Shown here one piece after another: positions 24,663-60,278 of a stretch of DNA of 64,000 bases (position 1 is the first letter of the stretch; each line of letters begins with the position of its first letter). A program made the translations under genes and the position numbers. Source of the DNA: a virus (taxonomy: Duplodnaviria > Caudoviricetes). The notes beneath the pieces were generated by a model that did no database searches, was not told the origin of the DNA, and was given only the letters and a program-made list of their open reading frames with translations. The stretch is taken from IMG/VR virus record IMGVR_UViG_3300032007_000009; one strand, given 5' to 3'.

Positions 24663-25355
24663 TTATTTAAATTCGTTTGGATCATCATAACCTAATTGAG
24701 ATTCTGCTCTCTTCTTAAGTTCATCTTCATGTCCAAAATAGTTTTTTGCTAAAATTGGATAACAGTCATAATATTTAACATCATAATCATAATGGAAATC
24801 CATTCTAAACATATTTACTTGTTGGTCAGTATTCTTTCCACGTTTTCCTTTAAAGTCAAATACTTCAAATGTATCAGGATTCCATCTATCATATATAATC
24901 AAATCACGTTCTTCTACATCATCAGGATCAATATCTTCTCCTTTACGTCCTTGAATATAATTATCTGATTCTTTATATGCTTTATATTGTTTTTCAATTT
25001 CAGTTAAATCAAATTGCTTAATCCAATCTAAATTGATTTTTTGTTTTTCTAACTTATCATGATTACTTAAAAAGAAACCTCTAAATCCTTTTTCTGTTGA
25101 TAAACCATATTTCTTATAAATTTGATATATCATTGATTTAGGCCAAGTTGATTTAGTTATAAATTTCTTAAATGTTGTACGTAATTCTGTTTGATTATCT
25201 AATGAAATTTTTTGGCCTTTCATATCTTCACAGAATCTTTTAATATTCATTAATACTTCAGATGCTTCAGAATCTTTAATATTAAAAACATTATTTAATG
25301 TAAGTCCTTCATTAAGTTGAAATGATTCTTTTATAAATTCTAAAATTGATTTCAT
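24663..25355 (-). CDS. Putative internal head protein (leader MKSILEFIKE)
   Basis: T4 CTS-like 10-aa leader. Confidence 0.6.
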   Translation of the reverse strand: MKSILEFIKESFQLNEGLTLNNVFNIKDSEASEVLMNIKRFCEDMKGQKISLDNQTELRTTFKKFITKSTWPKSMIYQIYKKYGLSTEKGFRGFFLSNHDKLEKQKINLDWIKQFDLTEIEKQYKAYKESDNYIQGRKGEDIDPDDVEERDLIIYDRWNPDTFEVFDFKGKRGKNTDQQVNMFRMDFHYDYDVKYYDCYPILAKNYFGHEDELKKRAESQLGYDDPNEFK

Positions 25356-25385
25356 ATAATTTAGTATAATTTTATAAATAAAATA

Positions 25386-25781
25386 TTAATCTTTTTCTAT
25401 CAAATTCCATATTATATCAAAATCTTCTTTATTAAATATAGGGTAAAAAAATCTATTGATAAATATTCCTAATACATAAGATGAATTAGAATTATTTTTC
25501 TTAATATAATCATTAAGGTATCCATCATATGTATTTACTTCATTTCCTTCAGAATTAATAGACTTCATAAATTTTGTTCTATACCAAGATAAATTTCCAT
25601 TATCACTGATTAAGAACATTGGTTTTCTTGACCAATCATGTTTTTTATTATCCCACCCTTTAACACGTTTAATTATTGATCCCCAAATAGAATTATCATC
25701 TGTACTTAATGCATTTAATATTTGAGTATCTATTTTATTATCTGATTTGTCTTCTTTAATTAATTCAGTTAAATTCTTCAT
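25386..25781 (-). CDS. Putative internal head protein (leader MKNLTELIKE)
   Basis: T4 CTS-like 10-aa leader. Confidence 0.6.
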   Translation of the reverse strand: MKNLTELIKEDKSDNKIDTQILNALSTDDNSIWGSIIKRVKGWDNKKHDWSRKPMFLISDNGNLSWYRTKFMKSINSEGNEVNTYDGYLNDYIKKNNSNSSYVLGIFINRFFYPIFNKEDFDIIWNLIEKD

Positions 25782-25793
25782 ATTTATTATTTA

Positions 25794-26081
25794 TTATAAT
25801 TTCCATCCCATATACCCACAGATGACTCCCATGACTAATTTAGATGATAATAAACTACCGAATGAACCTTTAGGATCACAACCTAAAGCTTTACATATAG
25901 CAGCACCTAATTTAGGACCCAAAGTAGAACCAAATGCTAATCCACCTAAAGCTCCTAATATTCCTTCATCTATAGGTAAATTGTTTTCTTTTGCTTCTTG
26001 TAATTTTTGAATTATACTATCATATGATAATACTTCATTAATTTGAGATTTATCTTTAACAATTTCTTCTATTGATTTCAT
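25794..26081 (-). CDS. Small virion protein with glycine-zipper membrane segment
   Basis: Charged N-terminal half with INE/IDE sites followed by GILGALGGLAFG... Confidence 0.6.
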   Translation of the reverse strand: MKSIEEIVKDKSQINEVLSYDSIIQKLQEAKENNLPIDEGILGALGGLAFGSTLGPKLGAAICKALGCDPKGSFGSLLSSKLVMGVICGYMGWKL

Positions 26082-26144
26082 AAACAAATGTTTAAATTTA
26101 TATTTAAAAATAAAACAAATAATTAATTTAGAAAAATAAATAAA

Positions 26145-28133
26145 TTAAGGTATTGGTTGAATTCTACTTGAAACATTTGACCATTGTGACTTATATGTAT
26201 TAACAGCAGATGAAGGTACATATATAATATATGAAGCTTGATTAAATTGAGAAGTTCCTGAACGTGTTGGTGGTATTAATGAATTGAATGTTATTGATGT
26301 TAATGATGTACAGCCAGCAAAACACCCATCACCAAGAGATGTAACTGATTCAGGAATATCTAAGTTTCCTGTTAAACTACTACAATTATAAAAACACCAT
26401 GATCCTATAGATGTTAATTCTGAGTTTAAAGTTCCAATAGATGTTAATGATGTACATCCATAAAATGCAACATTACCTATTGATTCACATGAAGATACAT
26501 CAATAGAAGTTATACTAGAACATCCATAAAATGCGCCTGAACCTATTGATGTACATGAAGATAAATTTATTGTACCTTGATATGTTAATAAATTACATCC
26601 AAAAAATGCTCTTTGATTTATTTGAACTATATTTTCCCATGTAATATTTATTGTTGTTAATTTACTACATCCTTCGAAAATGTTGTCAGGTATAGTTGTT
26701 ATTGGAGGTAATGAAATAGATTGTAAATTTTTACAATTAAAAAATACATTTCTACCTATTGATGTCAAATTAGAACTAAGTGTACCTATTGATGTTAATG
26801 ATGTACATCCATAAAATGCAGAATTTCCAATTGATGTACATGAAGATATATTGATAGAAGTTATACTAGAACATCCACTAAATGCACCTTCTCCTATTGA
26901 TGTACATGTAGATAAATTTATTGTATCTTGATATGTTAATAAACTACATCCAAAAAATGATCTTTTATTTATTTGAACTATATTTTCCCATGTAATATTT
27001 GCTGTTGTTAATTTACTACATCCTTCGAAAATGCTTTCAGGTATAGTTGTTATTGCAGGCAATGAAGCCGATTGTAAATTTGTACAATTAAAAAATACAT
27101 TTTTACCGGGATATGCACTTGTAAATGAAGATAAATTAGGTAAGTTAATTGATTGCAAACTAGTACATTTGTTAAATGCATAATTTCCAATATTAACTAC
27201 ATTAGGAATAATTGCACTACTTAAATTAGTACATCCATAAAATGCACCACCACCTATTGAGGTTAATTTTGGAAAATTAATTGATGTTAATGATGTACAA
27301 CCACTACATGCGTTACTATTACTTATAGTTTCTAAATTTGGAAAATCTAATTCTTCTAATGATGAGCATTTAAATAAATATTCATGAGATATTGTTTTAA
27401 TATTAATTCCATTTGTTATATGTTTTAAATTTGTACAATTATAAAAAGAACATAATGTTTCTTGTATTTCAGGTAATTTAACAGATGTAAGATTTGTATT
27501 ATTATTAAAACCTAATGCTTCTTTTCTATCATTATTAATTACTGTTATATTTGAAAAATCAAAATCTCCAATTAAATTACAACCAGTAAACACACCACCA
27601 CCACAACGTGTAATGTTTTGATAATTTTTTAATATTGTTAAATTTGTACATCCTGAGAAATTTCCCCTATCATCAAGATCAGTAATATTTATTAAATCAA
27701 TATCAGTTAAATTAGTACATTGTTTAAAACATTCAGATGGTAATGTATGTATATTAATAAAATATTTAAATTCATCAAAGCTACCAATAGATTTTCCATA
27801 AAATCTTTTATGTACTGTTACTGTAGCTGATCTAGCATTAGTAATTGTAAGTCCATTATCTCCATTACCAAACATTTCAACACAAACGGCTTCTGTATTA
27901 GGATCTGCAAATCTTATATATGGATCATTAGTTGAAATAATGTATAAATCTTCAAACTTTTGTGTTAAAAAGTTTATTGCATCAATATAACCATGTGTTA
28001 TTTCTACACGACCACATAAATATTGTTCAACATTATCATCTAAACCTTTACATAACTGATATAAGAATTCAATTATGTTTTCATTAATTGGTTTTGTAAT
28101 TTCATTATTTTGTGATATACTTAATTTAATCAT
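26145..28133 (-). CDS. BspA-type leucine-rich repeat (LRR_5) protein
   Basis: Repeated 'TSIG..AFYGCTSLTSI', FADP motif, C-terminal 'IYVPSSAVNTYK..W'. Confidence 0.9.
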   Translation of the reverse strand: MIKLSISQNNEITKPINENIIEFLYQLCKGLDDNVEQYLCGRVEITHGYIDAINFLTQKFEDLYIISTNDPYIRFADPNTEAVCVEMFGNGDNGLTITNARSATVTVHKRFYGKSIGSFDEFKYFINIHTLPSECFKQCTNLTDIDLINITDLDDRGNFSGCTNLTILKNYQNITRCGGGVFTGCNLIGDFDFSNITVINNDRKEALGFNNNTNLTSVKLPEIQETLCSFYNCTNLKHITNGINIKTISHEYLFKCSSLEELDFPNLETISNSNACSGCTSLTSINFPKLTSIGGGAFYGCTNLSSAIIPNVVNIGNYAFNKCTSLQSINLPNLSSFTSAYPGKNVFFNCTNLQSASLPAITTIPESIFEGCSKLTTANITWENIVQINKRSFFGCSLLTYQDTINLSTCTSIGEGAFSGCSSITSINISSCTSIGNSAFYGCTSLTSIGTLSSNLTSIGRNVFFNCKNLQSISLPPITTIPDNIFEGCSKLTTINITWENIVQINQRAFFGCNLLTYQGTINLSSCTSIGSGAFYGCSSITSIDVSSCESIGNVAFYGCTSLTSIGTLNSELTSIGSWCFYNCSSLTGNLDIPESVTSLGDGCFAGCTSLTSITFNSLIPPTRSGTSQFNQASYIIYVPSSAVNTYKSQWSNVSSRIQPIP
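26400..27101 (-). repeat. 351-bp tandem duplication inside the LRR gene
   Basis: 26521-26703 aligns to 26872-27054 (offset 351 nt = 117 aa). Confidence 0.8.
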
Positions 28134-28150
28134 TATGATATAAAAAATAT

Positions 28151-29836
28151 TTATATAAAATATATGTCAATATCTTTAGCTATTATAGAATTTTTCTTAC
28201 CATTAATAATATCTGATTTATCAGGATAAATTTTAAATCCTCCATGTAATATTGGTACTTCCATTTTTGAATCTACTTGAATATTTCCAACTGAATCTAA
28301 TCCAGGTAATATTGAATTTTCATAAATATGTTTTACAGGAATATAATGATATGTACCATTATGTGATTGTATTTCATATTTAATATAATAATTATCATAA
28401 AAAGCTTTTTCTGCAGTTTCTGATATTATATCCATGTCTAATGATAATATGTTTTCACAGTTATCAATACATAAACTTATAAGTTCAGATTTTGCAATAA
28501 ATTGTGTTGAATCTTTAAGATTAATAAAATATTCACATAATGTTTTTCTTATGGAAGATTTAATTGTATCTTTATTATATACATTATCTGCTTTAACATA
28601 ACACATTATTGCATATTTTCTAATTATAGGGTCTTTAAATGATATTGATATACCCGCAAAAGATTTCTTTGAATTTTCTAATGTATTACAAATCATTTCT
28701 TTTTGTTCAGATGACAATATGAATTCTGAATCTTTTATATTAAAATAGTCTTCAATATCTTTTATTTGATTCTTTGTATTTGTTAAACAAACAACATTCA
28801 TTACCATACTATTAGATTCTGTCCAACAACTAACATAACCAATAAATGAAAAGCGTTTAAAGAATAATCTAAAATTATCTTCAGATGCTAATACTAATGA
28901 ACGTGAATTTGTACCTATCATATTTCTAATAAATTCAATACTATCTGATTCTTTTCCTCCAGATATACAAGTTAATACTGATAATGTCATATAATCATTT
29001 ATATTGACAGAATTACCTAATGCATCAGACCCATATTCTCTAAATGTAAAATCATAAATATCTGTAGATGATATATTTCCATTTTCTCCAGAATGTTTTA
29101 GATATTCTATATTAACAGTATCGCCTTCTTGTAATATTGTTCCATATGTTTCATTTCCAAATATTACATCAAATGCATTATCATATCCAATACTGATAAA
29201 ATATTCATGACCATTTTCTGTCATATCATATAAATTTCCAACTTCTGTCCATTCTTCTCCATTAACTTTAACTGTTATATATTGTCTATCAAATAATTGC
29301 AAAGTTGAACAGTGTACAGCTTCTAATGCAGTTCCTTGTGCTGCATATGTAAATTGTTCAAACACACCTTGAACAATTTTGAATTCATGAGTCATTAATG
29401 GTTTTGAAACATCAAATGAATATACATTTGTAGGTAATACTATTGAATATACAAAACCAGAATTTCTATTCATAACAGTAGTATGATTATTAATATATAC
29501 TTTTGTGGTTTTTGAATCTAAACCATTATTTATTTGAAGTTTACCTAATAATATTCCTGATGCTGCAGATCCATAATAAGCTTCAAATCCAGATATTTTC
29601 GCTAATGAATATACAGATTGTTTACGAGATGCTTTAAATATATTTTGTTCAGTTAATGCATCTTCTATATAAAACATTATGTTTTCCATAATGCCTTTCA
29701 TACCATTAAATATTATTCCAAATATTTGAGTATTTGAATATTGTAAACCTAAACTATTAAAAGCTTTAGATAAATAACTATTAATAGTACTATCAAAATT
29801 TTCAAAATTAGTTTCTATTGTCTTAAATAATTTCAT
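28151..29836 (-). CDS. Baseplate wedge protein (T4 gp6-like)
   Basis: 'SVYSLAK..G', 'VIFGN..YG', 'GG.ESDSIE.IR', adjacent gp25-like gene. Confidence 0.8.
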   Translation of the reverse strand: MKLFKTIETNFENFDSTINSYLSKAFNSLGLQYSNTQIFGIIFNGMKGIMENIMFYIEDALTEQNIFKASRKQSVYSLAKISGFEAYYGSAASGILLGKLQINNGLDSKTTKVYINNHTTVMNRNSGFVYSIVLPTNVYSFDVSKPLMTHEFKIVQGVFEQFTYAAQGTALEAVHCSTLQLFDRQYITVKVNGEEWTEVGNLYDMTENGHEYFISIGYDNAFDVIFGNETYGTILQEGDTVNIEYLKHSGENGNISSTDIYDFTFREYGSDALGNSVNINDYMTLSVLTCISGGKESDSIEFIRNMIGTNSRSLVLASEDNFRLFFKRFSFIGYVSCWTESNSMVMNVVCLTNTKNQIKDIEDYFNIKDSEFILSSEQKEMICNTLENSKKSFAGISISFKDPIIRKYAIMCYVKADNVYNKDTIKSSIRKTLCEYFINLKDSTQFIAKSELISLCIDNCENILSLDMDIISETAEKAFYDNYYIKYEIQSHNGTYHYIPVKHIYENSILPGLDSVGNIQVDSKMEVPILHGGFKIYPDKSDIINGKKNSIIAKDIDIYFI

Positions 29837-29847
29837 ATTATAAATAA

Positions 29848-30192
29848 TTAACGGAATTCATAATTTCTTTCTATAGAATTATTCTCGTTATCATCATATA
29901 TTTTTATCTTAACCTGATATATAAATCTATATTCACCTTTTACTACATCTACATCTATATCTACATTAAGTTCATTTAAATAAACTGTATCTACAATTTT
30001 ACTTTGTATATATTTCTTTAATGCGTCTGTTGATGGAGATATTTGCCATGAAAACTGTTCAAAATCACATCCAAATTGTGGATATCCAATTAGTTCAGTT
30101 AATTCTGTATTAAATAATATATCTAATTCTTGTACTGCTTCATCTAATTTATTTCTTATGAATACTCTGCCATCTAATGCTAAATCTATCAT
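29848..30192 (-). CDS. Baseplate wedge/sheath initiator (T4 gp25-like)
   Basis: 'ILFNT...E.IGYPQFGCD.' motif. Confidence 0.75.
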   Translation of the reverse strand: MIDLALDGRVFIRNKLDEAVQELDILFNTELTELIGYPQFGCDFEQFSWQISPSTDALKKYIQSKIVDTVYLNELNVDIDVDVVKGEYRFIYQVKIKIYDDNENNSIERNYEFR

Positions 30193-30220
30193 AATATAAA
30201 TACATTATTTTATAAAAAAA

Positions 30221-32338
30221 TTAATAAATAACCCAGTTACCAGATGATATATATTCATCATCTTGATTAGTTATATTATAATATCCCGATTCTTCATTTA
30301 ATAAAGAAGCATTGATATTAAATATAACATAAATATCGTTTCTTCCAACTTCAATATATTCTGTATTATCTATTATTAATTTGAATATTTCTACTTTTGT
30401 CATATAGTTAGAAAGATTAACTCCAATATTTTGAGATAATCCTCTTCTTAATTTAATATTCTGTAAATCTTTAACATTATAGAATATTGGTTTATATATA
30501 ACTTTTTGAGATGTATTAGATAATGAAATATTTGAATTATCTGTTTTCTTATTGATAATACATTTTACATTATTTATAAAATTAATATTATCTTCATTAA
30601 GTTTAATTGATTTCATATTATCATTATTTCCTATATTATAATTTATATTTGATAATGTTTTCAATCTATGAATATTATTATCATTAATTAAATATTTTTT
30701 CCATTCATTACTTATTATTACAACATTACTTACAAATTGAATGCCTAAGAATTTATCAAAAAATGTAACACGTCCTATTAGTTTTTCTGGAAACTGATTC
30801 CAATTATTGAATATTCCATTTAATGCAAATGAACAATCATCTAATTCTCCAATGTTAATATTTACATTCTTATCATATATTACATTTGTAAAGTTTTCAT
30901 TTGTAGATATTTCAACTTTAAATCCTAAAAAATTAATAGGAGTCCCATATTCTTCTTCATATTCACTTTGTAATGATTCCTTCATTAAAGTTTTCCAAAC
31001 TTTTAATATTTCTTCATCTGAAGAATATGCTGTATTTGTAATTGCAATAACTGATTTTTTTATATCATCATTTATTGAAGTCACATTATCGATATTCTTA
31101 ATCTGTTCTTCAAAATTATAATTAGTAAATTTATTATAATTATCTTCATCAATATTATTAAAGTATATATATGCTTCTTTAAATGGTGAAGTAAATATAT
31201 CATCTTTATACTTATTATAATAATATGATTTATTAGGATAATCAAAAAATGATATTATTGAAAGTATACCATTAGAAAACCCTAATACTGAACTTAAGCT
31301 AAATTTTGATTCATTTGTAAACGATGTTGTTACAGCAGGATAATTATCATCTATTATATAAAGTTTTAATTGTTCATCAATATAACTATATGGAAATATT
31401 GTTATATCTAAAGGATATGATAAATAATTATTATCAATAGATAAATTATTCTTTAAATAAAGTTTAACATATGTTTTATCATCATTACTTAAGTTATTAT
31501 CGAAGTTCAATTTATTTTCAGAATTAACTTCTTCAATAATTCGATAAGGTTGTATTAATAAATTTATTGGGACTATCTGTTCACCATCATCTGTTTCTTC
31601 AGAATGTTCAATATCATTTGAAGAACTCAATATACTATTAATAAAATTTTCATTCTGAGTAGATACAATAATATCTAAATCTTCTTTATAAAATGTATTA
31701 TACGTACCGTCTTCATTTATTTTAAAAAGATCTTCTATATTAGGAACATATAATTCAATAAATTCAGAATATGTTTCATTATCTATTTTAATTTCAGTTT
31801 CTGAATTTGTATTAAAATCATTTATATTCTTACATAAGTAATGAATATGAATTCCATTAATATAATTAGAAATATCTATAATAGCATCAATATTAGTTTT
31901 CGTAAATGGATGATATATTCTAATTTTATCACATTTTATTTTTTTTCTTATTAAATTTGAATTAATCTTTTCATATATTTCATAAATACTATCTCCATAT
32001 TCATCTTCATAATATATTGATGAATTATTATCAAAATTAAAATCAGAATTAAAATTCAAATATGAAGTAGAATATGAATTAATTGCTGAATCAGTAACAG
32101 GAAAAACTAACTTATATCCTATTTCAGTTTTTGATTCCTTTAATTCTTGTATATATTCATCTAAATATTTTCTTTCAATAAAACATATATCTGAATCATT
32201 TACTACATTATTTACAATACTAAAATTTCTTATCATGACAAATTCAGATAAATATTCAGAATTTGTCATATCAATATTAGCATCATAATATTCTACTAAA
32301 TATCTATGGCTACCTATATTTACTATATTTCTTTTCAT
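30221..32338 (-). CDS. Large putative structural protein
   Basis: 705-aa ORF directly upstream of the baseplate genes. Confidence 0.6.
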   Translation of the reverse strand: MKRNIVNIGSHRYLVEYYDANIDMTNSEYLSEFVMIRNFSIVNNVVNDSDICFIERKYLDEYIQELKESKTEIGYKLVFPVTDSAINSYSTSYLNFNSDFNFDNNSSIYYEDEYGDSIYEIYEKINSNLIRKKIKCDKIRIYHPFTKTNIDAIIDISNYINGIHIHYLCKNINDFNTNSETEIKIDNETYSEFIELYVPNIEDLFKINEDGTYNTFYKEDLDIIVSTQNENFINSILSSSNDIEHSEETDDGEQIVPINLLIQPYRIIEEVNSENKLNFDNNLSNDDKTYVKLYLKNNLSIDNNYLSYPLDITIFPYSYIDEQLKLYIIDDNYPAVTTSFTNESKFSLSSVLGFSNGILSIISFFDYPNKSYYYNKYKDDIFTSPFKEAYIYFNNIDEDNYNKFTNYNFEEQIKNIDNVTSINDDIKKSVIAITNTAYSSDEEILKVWKTLMKESLQSEYEEEYGTPINFLGFKVEISTNENFTNVIYDKNVNINIGELDDCSFALNGIFNNWNQFPEKLIGRVTFFDKFLGIQFVSNVVIISNEWKKYLINDNNIHRLKTLSNINYNIGNNDNMKSIKLNEDNINFINNVKCIINKKTDNSNISLSNTSQKVIYKPIFYNVKDLQNIKLRRGLSQNIGVNLSNYMTKVEIFKLIIDNTEYIEVGRNDIYVIFNINASLLNEESGYYNITNQDDEYISSGNWVIY

Positions 32339-39073: not shown

Positions 39074-39265
39074 TTATATTTTATATCTTTTGAATTTTTT
39101 TCTTCGTTTATAAAGTTTTCCTGTTTTAATATCAATACATAATGGCTGTGGAATATCTCCTGAACCTGGTTGTGTATCAGTAGGTGCAGAAGGATTTCCC
39201 ATTCCAATTGTATTAGCTGGAGCTGTAAATATTTCTTCCTTTATATATTGTGATAAATTTTTCAT
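39074..39265 (-). CDS. Small putative internal head protein (MKNLSQYIKE)
   Basis: CTS-like leader; basic tail. Confidence 0.6.
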   Translation of the reverse strand: MKNLSQYIKEEIFTAPANTIGMGNPSAPTDTQPGSGDIPQPLCIDIKTGKLYKRRKKFKRYKI

Positions 39266-39266: not shown

Positions 39267-40205
39267 TTATCTAAATTTAATTATACCAACAATTGCTTTT
39301 TCTAATTTATTATCCCATGGATATAATACAATAGCATTTGCATATTTTGTATTTAACACTCCAGCAGGTGTCATTAATTTACATTTTTTATATTTATAAA
39401 GTAAATCTAATAAATCACCTAATGTTTCAAGTTTAATTGCTTCTGATTCATTTTCTGTATAATCTAAAATTAATGTTTGACCTTCTTTTGAACCTTCACC
39501 AATTTTTATATAACCAACTTCATGTCTTGTTTGTCTACCTGCACCTGCAGTAACACTACCAAATTGTATTTTCTTTTCAAGCTTAATGTTACGAAGATCA
39601 TTTTCAGATTTATCTACTGTATTCTTTAAATAACCCTTTGCGTATTGTGTTAAATATTCAATTGTTTGTTCTTTATTTTTTTGAATATCTTCCCATTCTT
39701 CTTCAAGATATTCTTTCCATGTTCTTGTATTTTTTCTAAAAGAGAATGGTTTACCATCCATATCTAAATCATAATCACAAGGTTCTTTAAGCCAATCTTC
39801 TAATTTTAAAATTTCTCCTTTATCATTTTTAATAAATGGGTGTCCTTTTGTTTTGTTTTCATTACCATTACTATAATTATAATTTACAAAGCCATCATAA
39901 ATTTCTTTTACCATAGCAGTAAAATCTTCATAATTAAATTTACGATAATTTGCATTTGTCTTAAAATGTGATTTAATCATTTTTTCAATATCTGCTTCAG
40001 ATTTCAAATCAGATTCAACACTTACAAATTGTTGTAAATTTGTATTCCATTTATAATTTGTAGTTAATGATTTCATATGTTCTTTAACCTTTTCAATATC
40101 AAATGGAATATATCTATTATCTTGTAATGGTATTGCACGATTACTATTCCACATACACCCAACCCATTCTACAGATTCATTTAAAAATTGTTTTAAATCT
40201 TTCAT
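39267..40205 (-). CDS. Putative internal head protein (MKDLKQFLNE)
   Basis: CTS-like leader. Confidence 0.6.
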   Translation of the reverse strand: MKDLKQFLNESVEWVGCMWNSNRAIPLQDNRYIPFDIEKVKEHMKSLTTNYKWNTNLQQFVSVESDLKSEADIEKMIKSHFKTNANYRKFNYEDFTAMVKEIYDGFVNYNYSNGNENKTKGHPFIKNDKGEILKLEDWLKEPCDYDLDMDGKPFSFRKNTRTWKEYLEEEWEDIQKNKEQTIEYLTQYAKGYLKNTVDKSENDLRNIKLEKKIQFGSVTAGAGRQTRHEVGYIKIGEGSKEGQTLILDYTENESEAIKLETLGDLLDLLYKYKKCKLMTPAGVLNTKYANAIVLYPWDNKLEKAIVGIIKFR

Positions 40206-40230: not shown

Positions 40231-40971
40231 TTATTTTCCTGTAAAGTACCAACTGGCTTCTGCTTGACGTCTTTTAATAAGACCTGGATATTTCTTACCT
40301 TGTACATCTGACATATGTGACCAAGAATTTTTAATTGCAGCATCATTAGGATTCTTTTTAATCATAGTAACAGTTTTTGTATATACTTTACCCGTCAATG
40401 TTAAGAATCCATTACCGAAATTATAACAAGCACTTGCTATGGCATCCTTTTGATTTTGATTTAAAACAATTTTATTTGATGTAGCCCAGTTATCTATTTT
40501 TTTAGATACTAAAATAGCATGTTCTAAGAATAATTGTTCTAATTCTTTTTGAGTCCAAACTTTCTTTATAGTATCCATGTATTTACCATTTGGGTGCATT
40601 AATAATCCATATCCAAATGTTCTATGTCCACCTGCATCTTTTAAGTCATAACCATTTAAATCTTTAGACCCCATTGTATAACCAAATTTATGTCCCGTTT
40701 CATATTGACAAATAAAATTAATCATACCTGTACTAATGCCAACATTATTTCCTGTAGAAGGTGTTGTAGTTTGAGTTTGTGTTTGACTTGGTAAAATAAG
40801 AGCCCAAGATTTAGGCCCAACAATACCATCAGGAGTAAGTCCTTTTGATTTTTGCCATTCTTTTACTTTTTTATCGGTTACAGGACCGAAACTGCCATCA
40901 GGAGTCAAACCTAAGAATTTTTGCAATACTTTTACCTCTTCTCCTTTAGAACCTAATTTAATTATATTCAT
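40231..40971 (-). CDS. Endolysin: peptidoglycan-binding domain plus GH24-like lysozyme
   Basis: 'GSKGEEVKVLQ..DG.FG..T..V..WQ...DGIVGP.SW'; 'TFGYG', 'NQNQ.DA..S..YNFG', 'GLIKRRQAE'. Confidence 0.9.
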   Translation of the reverse strand: MNIIKLGSKGEEVKVLQKFLGLTPDGSFGPVTDKKVKEWQKSKGLTPDGIVGPKSWALILPSQTQTQTTTPSTGNNVGISTGMINFICQYETGHKFGYTMGSKDLNGYDLKDAGGHRTFGYGLLMHPNGKYMDTIKKVWTQKELEQLFLEHAILVSKKIDNWATSNKIVLNQNQKDAIASACYNFGNGFLTLTGKVYTKTVTMIKKNPNDAAIKNSWSHMSDVQGKKYPGLIKRRQAEASWYFTGK

Positions 40972-42619: not shown

Positions 42620-44188
42620 TTATTTTTTTGCTTTCTGTTGTTCAAAATCCCAAGCAAGATCATCTTCTAAAACATGTTTCTTAGCAGGATTAATAAGATA
42701 ACCCATTTTAGACATTACATCTCTATTGAGTAATACCTTTTGTTTTTTATTACGATTATCTACTAATGCAAATTCAACGTCAAGTAATTTACGTGAACCA
42801 ATTTGTATACAAGGTATTAAAACAGTATTACGTGGTTCAGTTACTTGACCAACAATAGCTTTAGATTCACCATGTTTAGTAAAATTATATTTTTTACCAT
42901 TTATGGTTGCAATAATAGTATCACCTCTATATTCTAATGATTCACATCCTATTGTAGAAGCTTTAGCACCATTACCAGTATCAAATTTAGCTTCCATTGT
43001 AAATTCATCATCATTATCCATTGTAAATGTAATGTTTTCAAGATAACCAATATCTTTAGGAGCTAATACTAACTGATTAATATCATTAATATTATCAAGT
43101 AATATTTTCATAAAGTTTTCTCCTATTACTTCAGATATACCATCAGTACCTGGAGAAGCATTATATTCAAGAACAACGTTATCTCCAACTTCAGGATTAG
43201 AACCTTTTACAAGTGGCATAATATCTACAGCACACCAAGGCATTCCAGATATCTTAGCAACTTTAAGTGCAATTTCTTCTTGTTCTTTAGTTATATCTAC
43301 TTTTTCTGCTTGTGCACCTAATGAAACATTTGAACGGAAGTCTCCACTTATTTTAACACGTTTCATTGAAGCAAGAACTTTTTGTTCAGTTCTCATTGTA
43401 AGTACATGAACACGAATATCACCACCATCAGCTTCTTCTTTTTTCTGTAAAAGTAATTCTCTCTCAGGATCAATAGCAAAAGCTGTTTGAAGTATAGCTA
43501 AAATCTGTTTTCCATTAGTCATAAATACACCAGTACCTCCATGACCATCAAGAATTTTAACTACATATTCTTTTTTCTTATCTTCTTCTTCATTATTACC
43601 AAGATCTTTATAAATTAATTTTAATTTTTTCTTTAAAGATTCTTCTCCATCTTTAATATCATTTTTTGTTAATAATGCAAACTTAGGTTGAGGAACTTCA
43701 TATCTTTCTAATAATACAGATGATGTATATTTATTAGAAGCCTTCTTAGCAGATTGAATAGGATTAATAACAAAAAATCCCCAGTCTTGTAATTCTTTAA
43801 TTAATTCCATGCATTCTTCAGAATCTTGAACACCAAGACGAGTTATAACAATTGTATCAATATTAGATTGTTCTGTTATTTTATATTTGTTTTTGTTATC
43901 TGAGAATTCAATTTTATCATCAGTGGCTTTATAACTGATTTCTTCTGCAATAAATGGAAATATTTCGACATTTTTACCTTTTACTGCTGCAGTAAGATTT
44001 TTTAATGTCTTATTAGATTTATCATCTCTATCATTTGTAAAGAATAATATATTCTTAAAGAAATAATCCTTATTTTCATTTTCTTTTGCTTCATTTAATT
44101 TATGTTCCATACGAACTTTATCTAAATTATTGAAAACTTCAGAAATTGTAAAAGGATTTCTGTAATCATATGTTTTTGTAATATTCAT
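42620..44188 (-). CDS. rimK: RimK-family ATP-grasp ligase fused to RimB-like retropepsin domain
   Basis: 'VVK.L.G.GGTGV', 'DIRVHV', 'DFRSNVSLG', 'AVDI', 'LEYNASPG'; C-terminal 'AKFDTGN...VLLNR'. Confidence 0.85.
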   Translation of the reverse strand: MNITKTYDYRNPFTISEVFNNLDKVRMEHKLNEAKENENKDYFFKNILFFTNDRDDKSNKTLKNLTAAVKGKNVEIFPFIAEEISYKATDDKIEFSDNKNKYKITEQSNIDTIVITRLGVQDSEECMELIKELQDWGFFVINPIQSAKKASNKYTSSVLLERYEVPQPKFALLTKNDIKDGEESLKKKLKLIYKDLGNNEEEDKKKEYVVKILDGHGGTGVFMTNGKQILAILQTAFAIDPERELLLQKKEEADGGDIRVHVLTMRTEQKVLASMKRVKISGDFRSNVSLGAQAEKVDITKEQEEIALKVAKISGMPWCAVDIMPLVKGSNPEVGDNVVLEYNASPGTDGISEVIGENFMKILLDNINDINQLVLAPKDIGYLENITFTMDNDDEFTMEAKFDTGNGAKASTIGCESLEYRGDTIIATINGKKYNFTKHGESKAIVGQVTEPRNTVLIPCIQIGSRKLLDVEFALVDNRNKKQKVLLNRDVMSKMGYLINPAKKHVLEDDLAWDFEQQKAKK

Positions 44189-44287
44189 AAAAATGTTTAC
44201 TATTTTTTAAATCTTTGCTATTATACAATATAACTAAATAATCTATATTACTATATATAAGTTATATAAATAAAAATAAAAAAATAT

Positions 44288-56098: not shown

Positions 56099-56122
56099 AA
56101 GAGAGTACTTAGTACTCTCTTT
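56098..56122. terminator. Bidirectional hairpin terminator
   Basis: AAAGAGAGTACT-t-AGTACTCTCTTT. Confidence 0.7.
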
Positions 56123-56579
56123 ATTTCTTTTTTCCATCAAAAAGTAATTCCCATTTTTTATCATCAATATAACCAGATGCCATAGTATCTAATTTAAAAT
56201 ACTTTTTACACTTATCTGCATAATGTTGTAAATGATTTTGATCTGACCAAGAAGCACCATGATTAATAGTTATTAATAAATTAGCATTTTTGTCAAAATA
56301 TACAGTATATCCTGATGTCATAGCATAATCTAACATTGCTACGTTTTTCTTTGATGTTTCATATACATCTTTCCATTCTTTACGTATATTTTTTTCATCA
56401 ACTAATTTTTCTGCATAACGCTCTTGACTCCAAAATTTATCTACCATTTCTTGTGTAACATCTTCATAATCATTAAATGCACAAGTGTTCTTTTTTCTAG
56501 CTTCTCTTTGTTGTTTAATCCATTCTTCTTTTGGAATCCATTTCTTTGCTTCAATTAATAAATCTTTAATATCTTTCAT
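56121..56579 (-). CDS. Putative internal head protein (MKDIKDLLIE)
   Basis: CTS-like leader. Confidence 0.6.
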   Translation of the reverse strand: MKDIKDLLIEAKKWIPKEEWIKQQREARKKNTCAFNDYEDVTQEMVDKFWSQERYAEKLVDEKNIRKEWKDVYETSKKNVAMLDYAMTSGYTVYFDKNANLLITINHGASWSDQNHLQHYADKCKKYFKLDTMASGYIDDKKWELLFDGKKK

Positions 56580-56902
56580 ATGAAATATTTATTTTTTTCT
56601 TTTTTACCAATAACTACTTCGATTATTTGTTTTAGGATATATATATAATCTTTATTTTCAATAGGTTCTAAATCATTATCTACAAAATTTATAAATTCTT
56701 TTAAATTAGTTTCAAATTTAGTACCTTTGATTAATTCTTTAAGTTTATCTATAGAAACTTTATCTCCATTTTGTCTACATTGAACAACAATTTCTATAAA
56801 TTCAGATAATTGTTTTTCATTTCTTTCAAACCATTTATCAAGAAGCCAAAATAAATTATCTGTATCTAATTCTTCAAATATATAATTTCTTAATGATTTC
56901 AT
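56576..56902 (-). CDS. Putative internal head protein (MKSLRNYIFE)
   Basis: CTS-like leader. Confidence 0.6.
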   Translation of the reverse strand: MKSLRNYIFEELDTDNLFWLLDKWFERNEKQLSEFIEIVVQCRQNGDKVSIDKLKELIKGTKFETNLKEFINFVDNDLEPIENKDYIYILKQIIEVVIGKKEKNKYFI

Positions 56903-57288
56903 TCTCTTATTCTTATATATATATGTAATCCGCCATCAGAATCCCAAGCATCTCCTAATTCAATATCATACATATTATTTATAATTTCTTCATCTTCAAA
57001 ATCATCTTCCCATGATTTAATATCATCTTCAGTAACACTTTCTATAGTTTCACCTTCAGTATAAATACCAACCCATTTTACATCAGGACCTAATGTTTTT
57101 AATATTTTTTTATTAATTATATTTTCTTTTAAATTAATAAGTTCTCCAATAAAATCTAGAGAAAATTTACCTTTAAAACATCTATCTATTAATTTGTTTA
57201 AAGTATTAATACAACTCCATTCTTTACTTATTTTTGTATTCTTATTAATACGAAGTCCTTCTTTTATATAATTTGTAATTTGTTTCAT
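56899..57288 (-). CDS. Putative internal head protein (MKQITNYIKEGLRINK), acidic body
   Basis: Shares its leader with the DUF285 paralogs but not the repeats. Confidence 0.6.
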   Translation of the reverse strand: MKQITNYIKEGLRINKNTKISKEWSCINTLNKLIDRCFKGKFSLDFIGELINLKENIINKKILKTLGPDVKWVGIYTEGETIESVTEDDIKSWEDDFEDEEIINNMYDIELGDAWDSDGGLHIYIRIRE

Positions 57289-57291
57289 AAT

Positions 57292-57930
57292 TTATATAAT
57301 AACTTTGTCTGCCCATGAATTAACACCCCATGATTTAATTGTTGATGTTACTTTATTTAGACCCCATTTTTTAATATTTAAAATAAGTTTTTTACATCCA
57401 TAAAACATATTTTGACAATCATCTAAATTACTAATATTCCAATCAGATATATCTCCTACAGATTTAACACAATTACATGCGTTAAACATATAAGTCGTGG
57501 TTTTCAAATTTTTAGTATTCCATTTTGATAAATCTAATTTTTCTAAAGATGAACAAGATTGAAACATACCAAACATTGTTTCAACATTACTAACATTCCA
57601 ATCAGATATACCTTCTAATGTTTTAATTCCTGGCATTTCATGAAACATTTTTGACATATTAGTTACATTACTTACATCCCAAGAATCTAATCCTATTATT
57701 TCTTTTACTTTATATTTAGTAAATCTATCATTATTAAAATTAAATAAATTATTCATATTAGTCATTTTAGAAGTATCTATATTTGATAAATCTAAAATTT
57801 CATGATTATTTTTATATCTTTCTTCTATTATTTTTCTAAGGTCTTCAATAGATTCAGGACATAATTTATTTATTTTAATATTTTTATTAATACGTAGTCC
57901 TTCTTGTATATATGATGTTATTTGTTTCAT
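57292..57930 (-). CDS. DUF285 (BspA-like) repeat protein with CTS-like leader
   Basis: 'WDVSNVTNMSKMF' repeats. Confidence 0.85.
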   Translation of the reverse strand: MKQITSYIQEGLRINKNIKINKLCPESIEDLRKIIEERYKNNHEILDLSNIDTSKMTNMNNLFNFNNDRFTKYKVKEIIGLDSWDVSNVTNMSKMFHEMPGIKTLEGISDWNVSNVETMFGMFQSCSSLEKLDLSKWNTKNLKTTTYMFNACNCVKSVGDISDWNISNLDDCQNMFYGCKKLILNIKKWGLNKVTSTIKSWGVNSWADKVII

Positions 57931-57946: not shown

Positions 57947-58498
57947 TTATTCTTTATACCATGATGGTAGTGTCTTTAAAGATGTACATTCATCAAACAT
58001 GAAAAACATATCTTTTACATTACTAACATCCCATTTAGAAAAGTCACAGTCTAATGTCTGACACATCCTGAACATCCACGGCATTCTTTTTACATTTGAC
58101 ACATCCCAGTTTGATAAATCTGCGTTGAAGTTCTTACATCCGTTGAACATACTAGACATGTCTTCAACTTTACTAACATTCCAGTTTGATAAGTCAGAAT
58201 TGAACTTACTACAATTATAGAACATGTCTTTCATATTAGTGACATTTGACACATCCCACTTGTCAATCTTTATATTACGTGGTTTAAAACCGAGAAACAA
58301 TACAGACATATCTGTGATCTTTGATACATCAATATCATTAAGGTCTGCATCAGGATCTTTCTTGATACGCTCTTTCAGCATCTTACGTAGTTCATCTTTA
58401 GTATTCGGATGTTCAGTATACTTATTATATTTGAATTTTGAAGCAGTATTTTTATTAATACGGAGTCCTTCTTGTATATATGATGTTATTTGTTTCAT
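57947..58498 (-). CDS. DUF285 repeat protein with CTS-like leader
   Basis: 'FNSDLSNWNVSKVEDMSSMF' repeats. Confidence 0.9.
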   Translation of the reverse strand: MKQITSYIQEGLRINKNTASKFKYNKYTEHPNTKDELRKMLKERIKKDPDADLNDIDVSKITDMSVLFLGFKPRNIKIDKWDVSNVTNMKDMFYNCSKFNSDLSNWNVSKVEDMSSMFNGCKNFNADLSNWDVSNVKRMPWMFRMCQTLDCDFSKWDVSNVKDMFFMFDECTSLKTLPSWYKE

Positions 58499-58543
58499 AT
58501 TATATTAATCTTTATATATGTTGTCTATCATCAATTAAAACAT

Positions 58544-59164
58544 TTATGCTTTGTACCATGATGGGAGTGTTTTTAAAGATGTGCATTTATCAAACATTTC
58601 ACGCATGTCTTTTACATTACTGACATCCCAGTTTGATAAGTCAGAATTGAAATTATTGCAATCATAAAACATTGCGGCCATGTCTTCAACTTTGCTCACG
58701 TCCCATTTAGATATGTCACAGTTAAATTCATGGCATCTACGGAACATACTAGACATGTCTTCAACTTTGCTTACATCCCAGTTTGATAAGTCAGAATTGA
58801 ACTTAGTACATCCACGGAACATCTTGTTCATATCCTCAACTTTGCTAACATCCCATTTAGAAAGGTCTGCATTAAAGTCACCGCAATTATAGAACATGCC
58901 GTTCATGCTAGTGACATTTGACACATCCCACTGGTCAATCTTGATGTTGCCTGGTGTTGAGCACATGAACAATACAGACATATCTGTGATTCTTGATACA
59001 TCAATGTCATTAAGGTCTGCATCAGGGGTTTCCTTTAGACGTTTTTTCAGTATCTCTTGTAGTTCATCTCTTGTAGATGGATATTCAGTATTATATTTGA
59101 ATTTTGAAGCAGTATCTTTATTAATACGCAGTCCTTCTTGTATATATGATGTTATTTGTTTCAT
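58544..59164 (-). CDS. DUF285 repeat protein with CTS-like leader
   Basis: 'FNSDLSNWDVSKVEDM' repeats; one more repeat than its neighbour. Confidence 0.9.
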   Translation of the reverse strand: MKQITSYIQEGLRINKDTASKFKYNTEYPSTRDELQEILKKRLKETPDADLNDIDVSRITDMSVLFMCSTPGNIKIDQWDVSNVTSMNGMFYNCGDFNADLSKWDVSKVEDMNKMFRGCTKFNSDLSNWDVSKVEDMSSMFRRCHEFNCDISKWDVSKVEDMAAMFYDCNNFNSDLSNWDVSNVKDMREMFDKCTSLKTLPSWYKA

Positions 59165-59175
59165 AACTATATAAC

Positions 59176-59778
59176 TTATACTTTATATACTAATATTTCT
59201 TTATTATCAGATGATGTTTTAAAACCAAGTTTAATAAAAATAGATTTCATTTTAGGGTGTATTGGTTTTATTGTTATTCCTTTATAATTTCCAAGTTTAG
59301 GTATAATTTTAATAAAATCATTTAATATTGCTTTATTTAAATCTCCAGAATTATTAACAATTAATGATGATTCAATTCCTATTAAATTAATATAGTTTTC
59401 AATATATGTTATATTTTTATCATATAAACATAAACCAACAAAATAAACATTTTGGTCAGATTGATACCAATACGGATAACAATCAGGTTTGTATTCTTTA
59501 TCATTATCAATTAAATATTGTTTAGGAATTCTAAACATTTGATTAGTAACTGTAAAACCTAAATGTTTATCTGCAAGTATTTTTTTAAATACTGGATCAT
59601 TTGAATAATTATCATATAAAAATTCTTTTTCTGGTTTATTTAATTTTTCAATATCAACTTCAATTGGTTGAACTTTATTATCTTTTACCAATTGTTGTTG
59701 ATTATTATATACATCCTTTAACCATTTTTGAATTTTTTGATCTAACTGTTCATAAATATATGTTATTAAACTTTTCAT
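59176..59778 (-). CDS. Putative internal head protein (MKSLITYIYE), possible GNAT fold
   Basis: CTS-like leader; C-terminal 'GITIKP..PKMKSIFIKLGF'. Confidence 0.5.
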   Translation of the reverse strand: MKSLITYIYEQLDQKIQKWLKDVYNNQQQLVKDNKVQPIEVDIEKLNKPEKEFLYDNYSNDPVFKKILADKHLGFTVTNQMFRIPKQYLIDNDKEYKPDCYPYWYQSDQNVYFVGLCLYDKNITYIENYINLIGIESSLIVNNSGDLNKAILNDFIKIIPKLGNYKGITIKPIHPKMKSIFIKLGFKTSSDNKEILVYKV

Positions 59779-60278
59779 TACTTTATATCATTTAAGAAAT
59801 CTTTCAATTCTTGAAGATGTTCTTGTTCATCAGCAAGTATTTCTTTTAATTTTGAATTTGATGTTGGATCTACATCTTCAGTCAATTTAACTAATTCCTC
59901 ATATGTTTCAATTGCACCTTCTTCATTTTTTATATTATCTTCTAACGATTTCTTAATATCAATATTATCTTTTGACCATGTAGGAGCAATATATTTATGA
60001 TTAGCTGTTTCCCAAGAATTTGGAGACATTGATATATCTTCAATTGTACCACCAAGTTGATTAATACGTTTCATTAACCAATAACCATGATCCTCTAATT
60101 CATCTTTAGCTGTATCTTCATAGAATTTTTCAATGTCTTTACGGTCTGTTCCTTTTAACCATTCTTTAACAATTACATAACCGTACCATGCATTAAGTTC
60201 TTCTTTAAGTGCATTTTTCATTGCATCAATTATTTTTGAACCTTCTGCTTCATTAACGAATGTCAATAAATTTTTCAT
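59778..60278 (-). CDS. Ferritin-like DPS-like (DPSL) protein with CTS-like leader
   Basis: 'EELNAWY.Y', 'DELEDH...KRI.QLGG', 'E..AI.TY', 'ILADEQEH' di-iron motifs. Confidence 0.85.
   Translation of the reverse strand: MKNLLTFVNEAEGSKIIDAMKNALKEELNAWYGYVIVKEWLKGTDRKDIEKFYEDTAKDELEDHGYWLMKRINQLGGTIEDISMSPNSWETANHKYIAPTWSKDNIDIKKSLEDNIKNEEGAIETYEELVKLTEDVDPTSNSKLKEILADEQEHLQELKDFLNDIK

What the first reader, a model, noticed from the sequence alone, without database searches (positions are those of the whole stretch)
24663..60278. Fourteen unrelated proteins carry a T4-type 10-residue capsid-targeting leader: a large injected cargo set
Seen: 14 minus-strand ORFs start MK-x-(hydrophobic)-x-x-(Y/F/L)-(I/L/V)-x-E with Glu exactly at position 10 (MKSILEFIKE, MKNLTELIKE, MKNLSQYIKE, MKDLKQFLNE, MKSFNRYINE, MKHINEYIGE, MKDIKDLLIE, MKSLRNYIFE, MKQITNYIKE, MKQITSYIQE x3, MKSLITYIYE, MKNLLTFVNE). 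I did not find it on plus-strand or baseplate genes. Known: T4 internal proteins use MKTYQEFIAE-type leaders for packaging, are cut after Glu by gp21, and are injected (IPI* inhibits GmrSD, which targets sugar-modified hmC). Inference: a portable addressing tag loads a diverse effector set into the head, plausibly including anti-defence factors that protect the modified DNA.
Basis: partly seen in the sequence, partly recalled or inferred. Interest (0 to 1): 0.86.

Follow-up and report, generated by a model that had tools for sequence, protein, structure and literature searches.

The report
T4-style capsid-address tag on many proteins
A large, uncultured T4-related phage puts the same 10-residue "pack me into the head" leader, very like phage T4's, on at least 32 mostly unrelated late proteins, so it probably loads an unusually large protein payload into its capsid.

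Summary
All 14 minus-strand ORFs begin MK-x-[ILF]-x-x-[YFL]-[ILV]-x-E, and all 14 six-frame matches in the window sit at ORF starts. In the whole 236-kb record 24 of 332 ORFs match strictly, against about 0.08 expected. Counting 9-, 10- and 12-residue variants gives 32, on both strands. Other windows of this genome were flagged for the same tag.

The best reading is a T4-type capsid-targeting propeptide.
- T4's own tag, MKTYQEFIAE, fits the pattern.
- The phage has T4-like portal, terminase, gp2-, gp4-, gp6- and gp25-like genes.
- 31 of 32 tagged genes lie in units headed by the upstream motif that also precedes the portal and baseplate genes.
- The cultured relative PAU carries MKT[IL]xxLYE on its scaffold and on two annotated "internal capsid proteins", beside an S77 protease.
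- Relatives keep the tag but change the cargo genes.

Cargo includes a ferritin-like protein, DUF285 repeat proteins and, outside the window, a Nudix hydrolase and an AAA+ ATPase.

Three things are not shown. Cleavage, packaging and injection are untested. The anti-defence role is conjecture. The S77 protease and the major capsid gene are missing from this incomplete record.

Verdict: a new variant of a known kind, remarkable for its scale.

The parts
59778..60278 (-). Tagged gene (MKNLLTFVNE), ferritin/Dps-like, 166 aa. First gene of an eight-gene unit in which every gene is tagged.
   Evidence: One search gives the motif. PF00210 Ferritin, E=7e-19, domain from residue 17; 22 of the top 60 representative homologues carry a similar leader.
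59176..59778 (-). Tagged gene (MKSLITYIYE), 200 aa, no known family.
58544..59164 (-). Tagged gene (MKQITSYIQE plus GLRINKD), DUF285 repeat protein, 206 aa.
   Evidence: PF03382, E=4e-57; shared 17-residue prefix.
57947..58498 (-). Tagged gene (MKQITSYIQE plus GLRINKN), DUF285 repeat protein, 183 aa.
   Evidence: PF03382, E=4e-51; 63% identical to 58544-59164.
57292..57930 (-). Tagged gene (MKQITSYIQE plus GLRINKN), DUF285 repeat protein, 212 aa.
   Evidence: PF03382, E=4e-32.
56899..57288 (-). Tagged gene (MKQITNYIKE plus GLRINKN), 129 aa. The mature part is unrelated to the DUF285 genes.
56576..56902 (-). Tagged gene (MKSLRNYIFE), 108 aa.
   Evidence: A homologue in relative L107 is also tagged.
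56121..56579 (-). Tagged gene (MKDIKDLLIE), 152 aa. Last gene of the unit.
60308..60316 (-). Promoter-like motif TTATTTTTA, 30 nt upstream of the ferritin-like gene. Candidate head of the eight-gene unit.
42620..44188 (-). Untagged RimK-type ATP-grasp protein, 522 aa. First gene of the second tagged unit.
   Evidence: PF08443, E=9e-24; the motif lies upstream.
44271..44279 (-). Promoter-like motif TTATTTTTA upstream of the RimK-like gene.
42043..42564 (-). Tagged gene (MKHINEYIGE), 173 aa.
40973..41992 (-). Tagged gene (MKSFNRYINE), 339 aa, with a second L-x-E-G site at residues 19-23. It belongs to a conserved family.
   Evidence: 70 homologues keep the leader. AF2 mean pLDDT 84.9, residues 1-19 below 50, helix 2-13; no PDB fold match.
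40231..40971 (-). Untagged endolysin in the same unit. It serves as an internal negative control, because it acts outside the head.
   Evidence: phrog_7 endolysin, E=1e-18.
39267..40205 (-). Tagged gene (MKDLKQFLNE), 312 aa.
   Evidence: 8 homologues; the 63%-identical orthologue in L107 starts MKTLKQYIKE.
39074..39265 (-). Tagged gene (MKNLSQYIKE), 63 aa, mature pI 9.9.
25386..25781 (-). Tagged gene (MKNLTELIKE), 131 aa.
24663..25355 (-). Tagged gene (MKSILEFIKE), 230 aa.
25794..26087 (-). A possible fifteenth, degenerate member, 97 aa. Read from its third codon it starts MKSIEEIVKD, with Asp at position 10, followed by an INE site. It is the first gene of this unit.
   Evidence: The motif at 26105-26113 lies 18 nt upstream.
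26105..26113 (-). Promoter-like motif TTATTTTTA.
26145..32338 (-). Untagged baseplate unit (705 aa, gp25-like, gp6-like, 662-aa LRR protein) with the same upstream motif at 32355-32363. It shows that tagged genes share their regulation class with virion genes.
   Evidence: phrog_219 and phrog_43..

Best explanation
The 10-residue leader is this phage lineage's version of the T4 capsid-targeting sequence.

Proposed mechanism. The leader is a short amphipathic N-terminal helix, with hydrophobic residues at positions 4, 7 and 8. It binds the scaffolding core of the assembling prohead, so any protein that carries it is built into the head interior. A gp21-type (Peptidase S77) prohead protease then cuts after the invariant Glu of the [YFL]-[ILV]-x-E site. 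That releases the mature protein inside the capsid, where it stays with the DNA and is probably delivered to the next host.

The tag is modular. It has been placed on at least 32 mostly unrelated late proteins, about 10% of called ORFs and 36% of genes in virion-class units. These include a ferritin-like protein, DUF285 repeat proteins, a Nudix hydrolase and a MoxR-type AAA+ ATPase.

Shown here: the motif, its statistics, its conservation and turnover in relatives, its co-regulation class, and the T4-like head genes.

Inferred: core binding, cleavage, retention in the virion, injection, and any anti-defence role.
For: 1. Motif identity. T4's tag is MKTYQEFIAE and is cut once next to the ~10-residue leader (PMC8442874). 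One loosened DNA pattern retrieves T4 ipII and ipIII, both annotated 'internal virion protein', among 5 hits in T4, and gives 26 hits in this record.
2. Statistics. 24 observed against 0.08 expected. All six-frame hits are at or near ORF starts.
3. T4-like virion genes. Portal phrog_213 at E=2e-78 and the terminase, gp2-like DNA end protector, gp6- and gp25-like baseplate genes, and a gp4-like head-completion gene.
4. Cultured relative PAU (portal 35% identical).
   - At least 14 genes start MK[TS][IL]xxLYE, against 0 control hits.
   - They include the scaffold gp152 and gp142 and gp154, both annotated 'internal capsid protein'.
   - They cluster around the portal, the S77 protease gp151 and the major capsid gene.
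   - This record's 152-161 kb tagged cluster is syntenic with that PAU module through the gp4-like and gp2-like genes.
5. Relatives at 87-90% and at 57-64% protein identity keep the tag next to the gp2-like gene but on different gene sets. This matches the hypervariable internal-protein loci of T-even phages (PMC3012670, PMC12373910).
6. The constraint acts on the protein, not the DNA.
   - Nudix orthologues carry MKRYSELFE, MKNLIDFIKE or MKHITDWINE before a conserved mature start.
   - The 339-aa family keeps a leader down to 48% identity, and remoter members have leaders of other lengths that still end in [ILV]-x-E.
   - 22 of the top 60 ferritin-like representatives carry such leaders, against 4% background.
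7. Regulation class. 31 of 32 tagged genes lie in units headed by TTATTTTTA, together with the portal, terminase, baseplate, gp2-like, gp4-like and endolysin genes. Only 1 of 177 genes in the CTATATT class is tagged (Fisher p=3e-16).
8. The leader is an add-on.
   - Pfam domains start after it: ferritin at residue 17, Nudix at 19.
   - AF2 gives an isolated low-confidence helix at residues 2-13 ahead of a confident fold.
   - The residue after Glu is mostly Gly or Ser.
   - The mean helical hydrophobic moment is 0.52, against 0.32 for other N-termini.
Against: - No S77 protease gene, gp23-type capsid gene or sheath gene was found in the held record. The cutting enzyme is therefore inferred from relatives. 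The record is incomplete (CheckV 83%; related contigs reach 255-435 kb). The capsid gene of LR756500 finds nothing here although its portal is 43% identical.
- Unlike T4's small basic internal proteins, the mature cargo is on average acidic (median pI 5.6). It includes proteins up to 46 kDa and a probable oligomeric ATPase.
- A third of virion-class genes being head cargo is a lot to fit into a capsid.
- The motif alone is not proof. In T4 the same pattern also hits gp61.1, a hypothetical gene in the primase region.
- Small DUF285 repeat proteins would also suit an external binding role.
- There are no proteomic, expression or cleavage data for this phage or, in the held literature, for PAU.
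Confidence: 0.7

Rival explanations
1. The leader is a prohead-protease propeptide that marks core or scaffold components used only during assembly. The proteins would be degraded or expelled on maturation, like T4 gp22, gp67 and gp68. There would then be no delivered effector payload.
For: - In PAU the scaffold itself carries the leader.
- Several tagged proteins have further internal [IL]-x-E sites, for example a second L-x-E-G at residues 19-23 of the 339-aa family.
- Many tagged proteins are small and match no known family.
Against: - Folded enzymes such as the ferritin-like protein, the Nudix hydrolase and the AAA+ ATPase make poor disposable scaffold.
- The cargo set turns over quickly between close relatives, which is unlike an assembly core.
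- In T4, proteins cut only once at the leader stay in the head (PMC8442874).
Confidence: 0.14
2. The leader is an uncleaved docking peptide. It would attach interchangeable proteins to an external virion structure, such as head fibres or tail appendages like those seen in PTm1 and PAU.
For: - Relatives PTm1 and PAU have unusual head or tail fibres (PMC7824862).
- DUF285 and LRR domains are typical binding modules, and larger untagged LRR proteins sit in the tail and baseplate units.
- The tagged genes belong to the late class.
Against: - The leader ends in the S77-type cleavage motif with an invariant Glu.
- In PAU it sits on the scaffold and on the annotated internal capsid proteins, next to the protease.
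- Nudix, ferritin-like and AAA+ enzymes are not fibre parts.
- The baseplate and fibre genes themselves lack the tag.
Confidence: 0.08
3. The leader is an address for some other destination in the infected cell, such as a replication compartment, the membrane or an export route, or it is a degradation signal.
For: It is a short amphipathic N-terminal helix, and nothing here shows directly where the proteins go.
Against: - There is no hydrophobic signal-peptide core.
- The motif matches the T4 capsid tag position by position.
- It co-occurs with head genes in PAU.
- It is restricted to virion-class units.
Confidence: 0.05
4. The shared N-terminus is a translation or mRNA feature of late genes, or a recombination scar spread by gene conversion, with no role as a peptide.
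For: - Eight genes share about 51 nt of near-identical leader DNA with unrelated flanks.
- AAA as the second codon is a common expression feature. That point rests on my own knowledge.
Against: - Most leaders differ in DNA and in residues while keeping the hydrophobic spacing and Glu10.
- Other late genes (portal, baseplate, endolysin) lack it.
- Orthologues swap leader sequence yet keep the pattern.
- PAU uses a 9-residue version ending in the same h-x-E.
Confidence: 0.03

Closest known systems
Phage T4 capsid-targeting sequence on internal proteins IPII and IPIII (Mullaney and Black 1996; reviewed in PMC3012670; PMC8442874; PMC12373910)
   Same: - A ~10-residue N-terminal leader with the same spacing: M-K-x-aromatic/aliphatic-x-x-F/Y-I/L-x-E.
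- It ends at a gp21-type [L/I]-x-E site.
- It sits on otherwise unrelated proteins whose loci vary between relatives.
- The phage has T4-like portal, terminase, gp2-, gp4-, gp6- and gp25-like genes.
   Different: - Scale. T4 has 3 internal proteins, and about 10 are described across T-even phages (PMC12373910). This record has at least 32.
- Cargo. It is on average acidic and includes recognisable enzyme folds, not small basic DNA-associated proteins.
- The protease and capsid genes are not on the held record.
- The host is probably not enterobacterial: 26% GC, no Shine-Dalgarno sequences upstream, and nearest relatives that infect Bacteroidota.
Sphingomonas (Sphingobacterium) phage PAU head module, gp131-gp164
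   Same: - Nearest cultured relative, with the portal 35% identical.
- At least 14 genes carry one shared short leader ending h-x-E, including the scaffold and two annotated internal capsid proteins.
- Synteny through the gp4-like and gp2-like genes.
- An S77 protease is present.
   Different: - The PAU leader is 9 residues long with a different consensus, MKT[IL]xxLYE.
- PAU has about half as many tagged genes, and they are concentrated in one head module.
- The held literature has no paper describing the PAU tag.
Propeptide processing of head and ejection proteins in giant phages phiKZ, 201phi2-1 and SPN3US (PMC5694885, PMC7411985, PMC10052503)
   Same: - Many head proteins, including a large mass of ejection proteins, are processed by a gp21-related prohead protease cutting after Glu.
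- These phages also carry a large protein payload with the DNA.
   Different: In those phages the propeptides are long and of varied length. From my own knowledge of those papers, the cut motif has a small residue at P3 (A/S/G-x-E), and there is no uniform 10-residue portable tag.

Membership tests
T4-type capsid-targeting sequence / internal-protein system | A leader of about 10 residues at the extreme N-terminus, matching the T4 pattern (MKTYQEFIAE). | tested here: met
   One DNA pattern finds T4 ipII and ipIII and gives 26 sites here.
T4-type capsid-targeting sequence / internal-protein system | The leader ends in the gp21 cleavage consensus [L/I]-x-Glu. | tested here: met
   Position 8 is I, L or V and position 10 is Glu in all 24 strict members. 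Position 11 is mostly Gly or Ser.
T4-type capsid-targeting sequence / internal-protein system | The phage encodes a gp21-type prohead protease (Peptidase S77). | tested here: inconclusive
   Not found in the held record by Pfam six-frame search or tblastn. The record also lacks the capsid gene and is incomplete. The protease is present in PAU, PTm1 and LR756500.
T4-type capsid-targeting sequence / internal-protein system | A T4-like head (gp20 portal, gp23 capsid protein, scaffolding core). | tested here: inconclusive
   A gp20-like portal is present. The gp23 family was not found in the record. No scaffold was identified.
T4-type capsid-targeting sequence / internal-protein system | Tagged proteins share nothing but the leader, and their loci vary between related phages. 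| tested here: met
   32 tagged proteins fall into 30 sequence clusters. Relatives carry different tagged gene sets at the same locus.
T4-type capsid-targeting sequence / internal-protein system | Made late, together with the head proteins. | tested here: inconclusive
   31 of 32 share an upstream motif class and operons with the portal, baseplate and terminase genes. There are no expression data, and the motif is not proven to be a promoter.
T4-type capsid-targeting sequence / internal-protein system | Cargo proteins are small and basic. | tested here: not met
   The median mature pI is 5.6 and sizes run from 6 to 46 kDa.
T4-type capsid-targeting sequence / internal-protein system | The leader is cleaved, the mature protein is present in virions, and it is injected. 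| not testable with these tools
   This needs virion proteomics or N-terminomics and infection assays.
phiKZ/SPN3US-type giant-phage propeptide processing | Long, variable propeptides cut at sites with a small residue at P3. | tested here: not met
   The leader has a uniform length of about 10 residues, and P3 is a bulky aliphatic residue.

The most novel reading that the evidence does not exclude
A clade of huge gut or rumen phages has turned the T4 capsid-targeting tag into a general loading system. A tenth of its genes, about a third of its late genes, would encode a rapidly changing arsenal of enzymes and binding proteins: ferritin-like, Nudix, AAA+, repeat proteins and candidate nucleases. 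These would be packed into the head and delivered with the DNA. If so, the 10-residue tag is a sequence key that lists the injected proteins of uncultured huge phages directly from metagenomes.
Probability: 0.4. Interest if true: 0.8.

Novelty: new variant of a known kind. Interest (0 to 1): 0.64.

Why it matters
Proteins injected with phage DNA act before any phage gene is expressed. They are hard to find because they share no sequence. In T4 the only handle is the leader, and all three T4 internal proteins have turned out to block type IV restriction enzymes (PMC12373910).

A lineage that keeps the same kind of leader on more than 30 proteins offers three things:
- a ready-made catalogue of candidate first-strike proteins in uncultured huge phages of gut and rumen bacteria;
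- natural evidence that the tag accepts folded enzymes of very different kinds;
- a simple, testable rule for annotating such genomes: an N-terminal MK…h-h-x-E leader in a late unit.

It also links the T4 system to the large ejection-protein loads of other giant phages.

Tried and rejected
**Searches that found nothing**
- Megablast of two window segments against the phage collection: no match.
- PHROG and Pfam scans of about 70 proteins to locate the head genes: only the portal, terminase, gp2-like gene and baseplate were found.
- S77, Gp23 and sheath families in the record: none.
- PTm1 and LR756500 capsid and protease proteins run by tblastn against the record: none.

**Attempts to reach the missing part of the genome, all failed**
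- An exact-protein look-up gave only a 5-kb contig.
- The larger related IMG/VR contigs are not held for whole-record search.
- Walking from the record's ends led into unrelated early genes or found nothing.
- A capsid-alignment scan, a degenerate capsid-motif scan and a capsid homologue search returned only other clades.

**Other negative results**
- TATAAATA, the T4 late promoter, and similar words are not enriched upstream of tagged genes.
- The protein atlas gave no usable hit for two cargo proteins.
- Foldseek against the PDB gave no match at E<=0.001 for the 339-aa cargo model.
- PTm1, Lak-A1 and LR756500 do not use the 10-residue form; the few pattern hits there look like noise.

**Jobs not run**

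**Ideas rejected**
- Global stop-codon recoding as the reason for the missing genes. Stop usage looks normal.
- That the three genes next to the portal are the protease and scaffold. They look like a zincin-motif protein, a gp5-type OB-fold protein and an Ala/Ser-rich protein.

Full report
**What is in the sequence**

A regular-expression scan of my own ORF calls confirms the 14 minus-strand ORFs and their N-termini exactly as listed. A six-frame scan finds the motif MK-x-[ILVMF]-x-x-[YFL]-[ILV]-x-E 14 times in the window, each time at an ORF start.

The window is the last 64 kb of a 235,986-bp IMG/VR virus record with 25.8% GC and a CheckV completeness of 83%. Across the record, 24 of 332 called ORFs match strictly. 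The motif's internal frequency predicts 0.08, and shuffled N-termini give 0.03. The DNA form of the pattern gives 25 hits against none for the reversed pattern.

Adding one alternative start, two near-misses and 9- or 12-residue variants gives 32 tagged ORFs, on both strands. First-stage notes on other windows of this genome list the same tag, including six more on about 21.7 kb of sequence that I do not hold. The scan had therefore already found the tag on other DNA of this genome.

**Are the proteins unrelated?**

Mostly. With the leader removed, the 32 proteins form 30 BLASTP clusters. Only three DUF285 repeat proteins in the window are paralogues.

Eight genes, four of them in the window, share a longer 17-residue prefix (MKQITxYIQEGLRINKN). 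It is encoded by about 51 nt of near-identical DNA, with unrelated sequence on both sides. The leader thus behaves as a discrete, movable block.

Cargo that can be identified:
- a ferritin-like protein (59778-60278; PF00210, E=7e-19, with the domain starting at residue 17);
- DUF285 repeat proteins;
- outside the window, a Nudix hydrolase with a 9-residue leader and a MoxR-type AAA+ ATPase.

The rest match no Pfam or PHROG family. The mature forms are 6-46 kDa, with a median pI of 5.6.

**What kind of phage is this?**

The portal is gp20-like (phrog_213, E=2e-78). There is also a T4-type terminase, a gp2-like DNA end protector, a gp4-like head-completion protein, and gp6- and gp25-like baseplate proteins.

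By portal similarity the nearest records are an uncultured 462-kb phage, LR756500 (43%), phage PAU (35%), Tenacibaculum phage PTm1 (33%) and the Prevotella Lak phages.

PTm1, PAU and LR756500 each encode a Peptidase S77 (gp21-type) prohead protease next to a gp23-type capsid gene. Neither gene can be found in this record by Pfam six-frame search or by tblastn, even with the LR756500 proteins. No sheath gene is found either. Capsid proteins are usually about as conserved as portals, and related contigs reach 255-435 kb. The simplest reading is that these genes lie on the missing part of the genome. All my attempts to reach that part failed.

**Comparison with T4**

T4's capsid-targeting sequence is MKTYQEFIAE. 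It is cut once, and whatever is fused to it stays in the head (PMC8442874). T-even internal proteins share only this leader (PMC3012670; PMC12373910).

The T4 leader fits the present consensus at positions 1, 2, 7, 8 and 10, and it has an aromatic residue at position 4. One loosened DNA pattern gives 5 hits in T4. Two of them are ipII and ipIII, both annotated as internal virion proteins. The same pattern gives 26 hits here. One of the other T4 hits is gp61.1, a hypothetical gene beside the primase, so the pattern alone does not prove the function.

**Evidence from relatives**

Phage PAU has at least 14 genes starting MK[TS][IL]xxLYE, against no control hits. They include the scaffold gp152 and two proteins whose depositors called them 'internal capsid protein' (gp142 and gp154). 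They crowd around the portal, the S77 protease and the capsid gene. PAU's gp4-like and gp2-like genes match this record's genes at 152.3 and 156.9 kb, which lie inside its plus-strand run of tagged genes. The two modules therefore correspond.

Six IMG/VR contigs with gp2-like proteins 87-90% identical, and an ENA contig with core proteins 57-64% identical, all carry the 10-residue tag on neighbouring genes. The number and identity of those genes differ.

Orthologues change the leader sequence while keeping the pattern. The Nudix protein carries MKRYSELFE, MKNLIDFIKE or MKHITDWINE before a conserved mature start.

The 339-aa cargo family (40973-41992) has 70 homologues. The leader is kept down to 48% identity, and remoter members have leaders of 8-16 residues that still end in [ILV]-x-E.

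Of the 60 best representative homologues of the ferritin-like cargo, 22 begin with such a leader, against 4% of untagged ORFs here.

An AlphaFold model of the 339-aa protein has a mean pLDDT of 84.9. It shows residues 1-19 as a low-confidence detached helix in front of a confident fold. That fold matches nothing in the PDB at E<=0.001.

**Regulation class**

TTATTTTTA lies 17-46 nt upstream of the first gene of units that contain the portal, terminase, baseplate, gp2-like, gp4-like, tail-fibre and endolysin genes. CTATATT precedes the units with replication and nucleotide-metabolism genes.

I assigned each ORF to the nearest upstream word along its same-strand run. This puts 31 of 32 tagged ORFs in the first class, where they make up 31 of 86 ORFs. 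Only 1 of 177 in the second class is tagged (Fisher p=3e-16).

In the window, all three tagged runs start at such a word: 60308, 44271 and 26105. The caveats are that the words are not proven promoters and that the assignment rule is a heuristic. The T4 late-promoter word TATAAATA is not enriched.

**Reading and rivals**

The best-supported explanation is a T4-type capsid-targeting propeptide. I put its probability at about 0.7.

Shown: the motif, the statistics, modularity, conservation with turnover, the virion-class context and the homologous head genes.

Inferred: binding to the core, cleavage by an S77 protease, retention and injection.

The anti-defence idea is untested. The window does hold a thymidylate-synthase-like gene and a TET-associated glycosyltransferase. 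DNA modification is therefore plausible, but nothing links any cargo protein to it.

The rivals are an assembly-only propeptide (0.14), an external docking peptide (0.08), another cellular address (0.05) and an expression or recombination artefact (0.03).

**Novelty**

The mechanism is known from T4, and ip genes are routinely recognised by their leader in T-even phages. I found nothing in the held literature on such a tag in PAU, in Lak-type phages or in gut jumbo phages.

What is new is the lineage, the scale (at least 32 per partial genome, against 3 in T4) and the nature of the cargo. I class it as a new variant of a known kind, with moderately high interest.

Noticed in passing
genome 62-82 kb (loci L004 and L005), outside the window: An array of 52 tRNA genes on the plus strand, covering most amino acids and often in several copies.
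   Followed up: partly
window 26105, 32355, 44271, 48867, 60308 (minus strand) and genome-wide: Two upstream words split the genome into two gene classes. TTATTTTTA precedes virion and tagged units. CTATATT precedes replication and metabolism units.
   Followed up: yes
window 42620-44188 (-): An untagged RimK-type ATP-grasp protein (PF08443) heads the operon that holds four tagged genes and the endolysin. RimK enzymes add glutamates to C-terminal Glu, and the released leaders would end in Glu. Pfam did not confirm a protease domain in its C-terminal third.
   Followed up: partly
window 44288-56098 (+): A plus-strand cluster with a thymidylate-synthase-like protein, a HAD hydrolase, a TET-associated glycosyltransferase (PF20691) and a kinase-like protein. 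It is a likely DNA base hypermodification locus.
   Followed up: partly
window 56899-59164 and genome 801-2709: Eight tagged genes share a longer prefix, the leader plus GLRINKN, with near-identical DNA but unrelated bodies. It may be a linker or a second signal, and it is a likely recombination handle.
   Followed up: partly
window 40973-41992 (-): The conserved 339-aa cargo family has a second conserved L-x-E-G site at residues 19-23, so the mature protein may start at Gly23. Its confident predicted fold has no PDB match.
   Followed up: partly
window 23266-24639 (-): Two TTATTTTTA words lie inside the 5' end of this 457-aa ORF, whose first 33 codons look non-coding. The real start is probably the Met at 24540, and the protein is untagged.
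   Followed up: partly
whole record: No major capsid, prohead protease or tail sheath gene is detectable although the portal and terminase are present. First-stage notes refer to about 21.7 kb upstream of position 1 that is not in the copy I hold.
   Followed up: yes
T4 NC_000866 18966-19130 (locus L231): T4 gp61.1, a 54-aa hypothetical protein beside the primase gene, begins MKTFKEFIKE. That is a close match to the capsid-targeting sequence.
   Followed up: no
upstream of all tagged genes: No Shine-Dalgarno sequences precede the start codons. Together with the 26% GC content and relatives that infect Bacteroidota, this suggests a Bacteroidota-type host.
   Followed up: no
genome 93963-94394 (-), next to the portal: A 143-aa ORF with an HExxH zincin motif, followed by a 232-aa protein with a gp5-type OB-fold hint. 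These occupy the place where relatives have the protease and capsid genes.
   Followed up: partly
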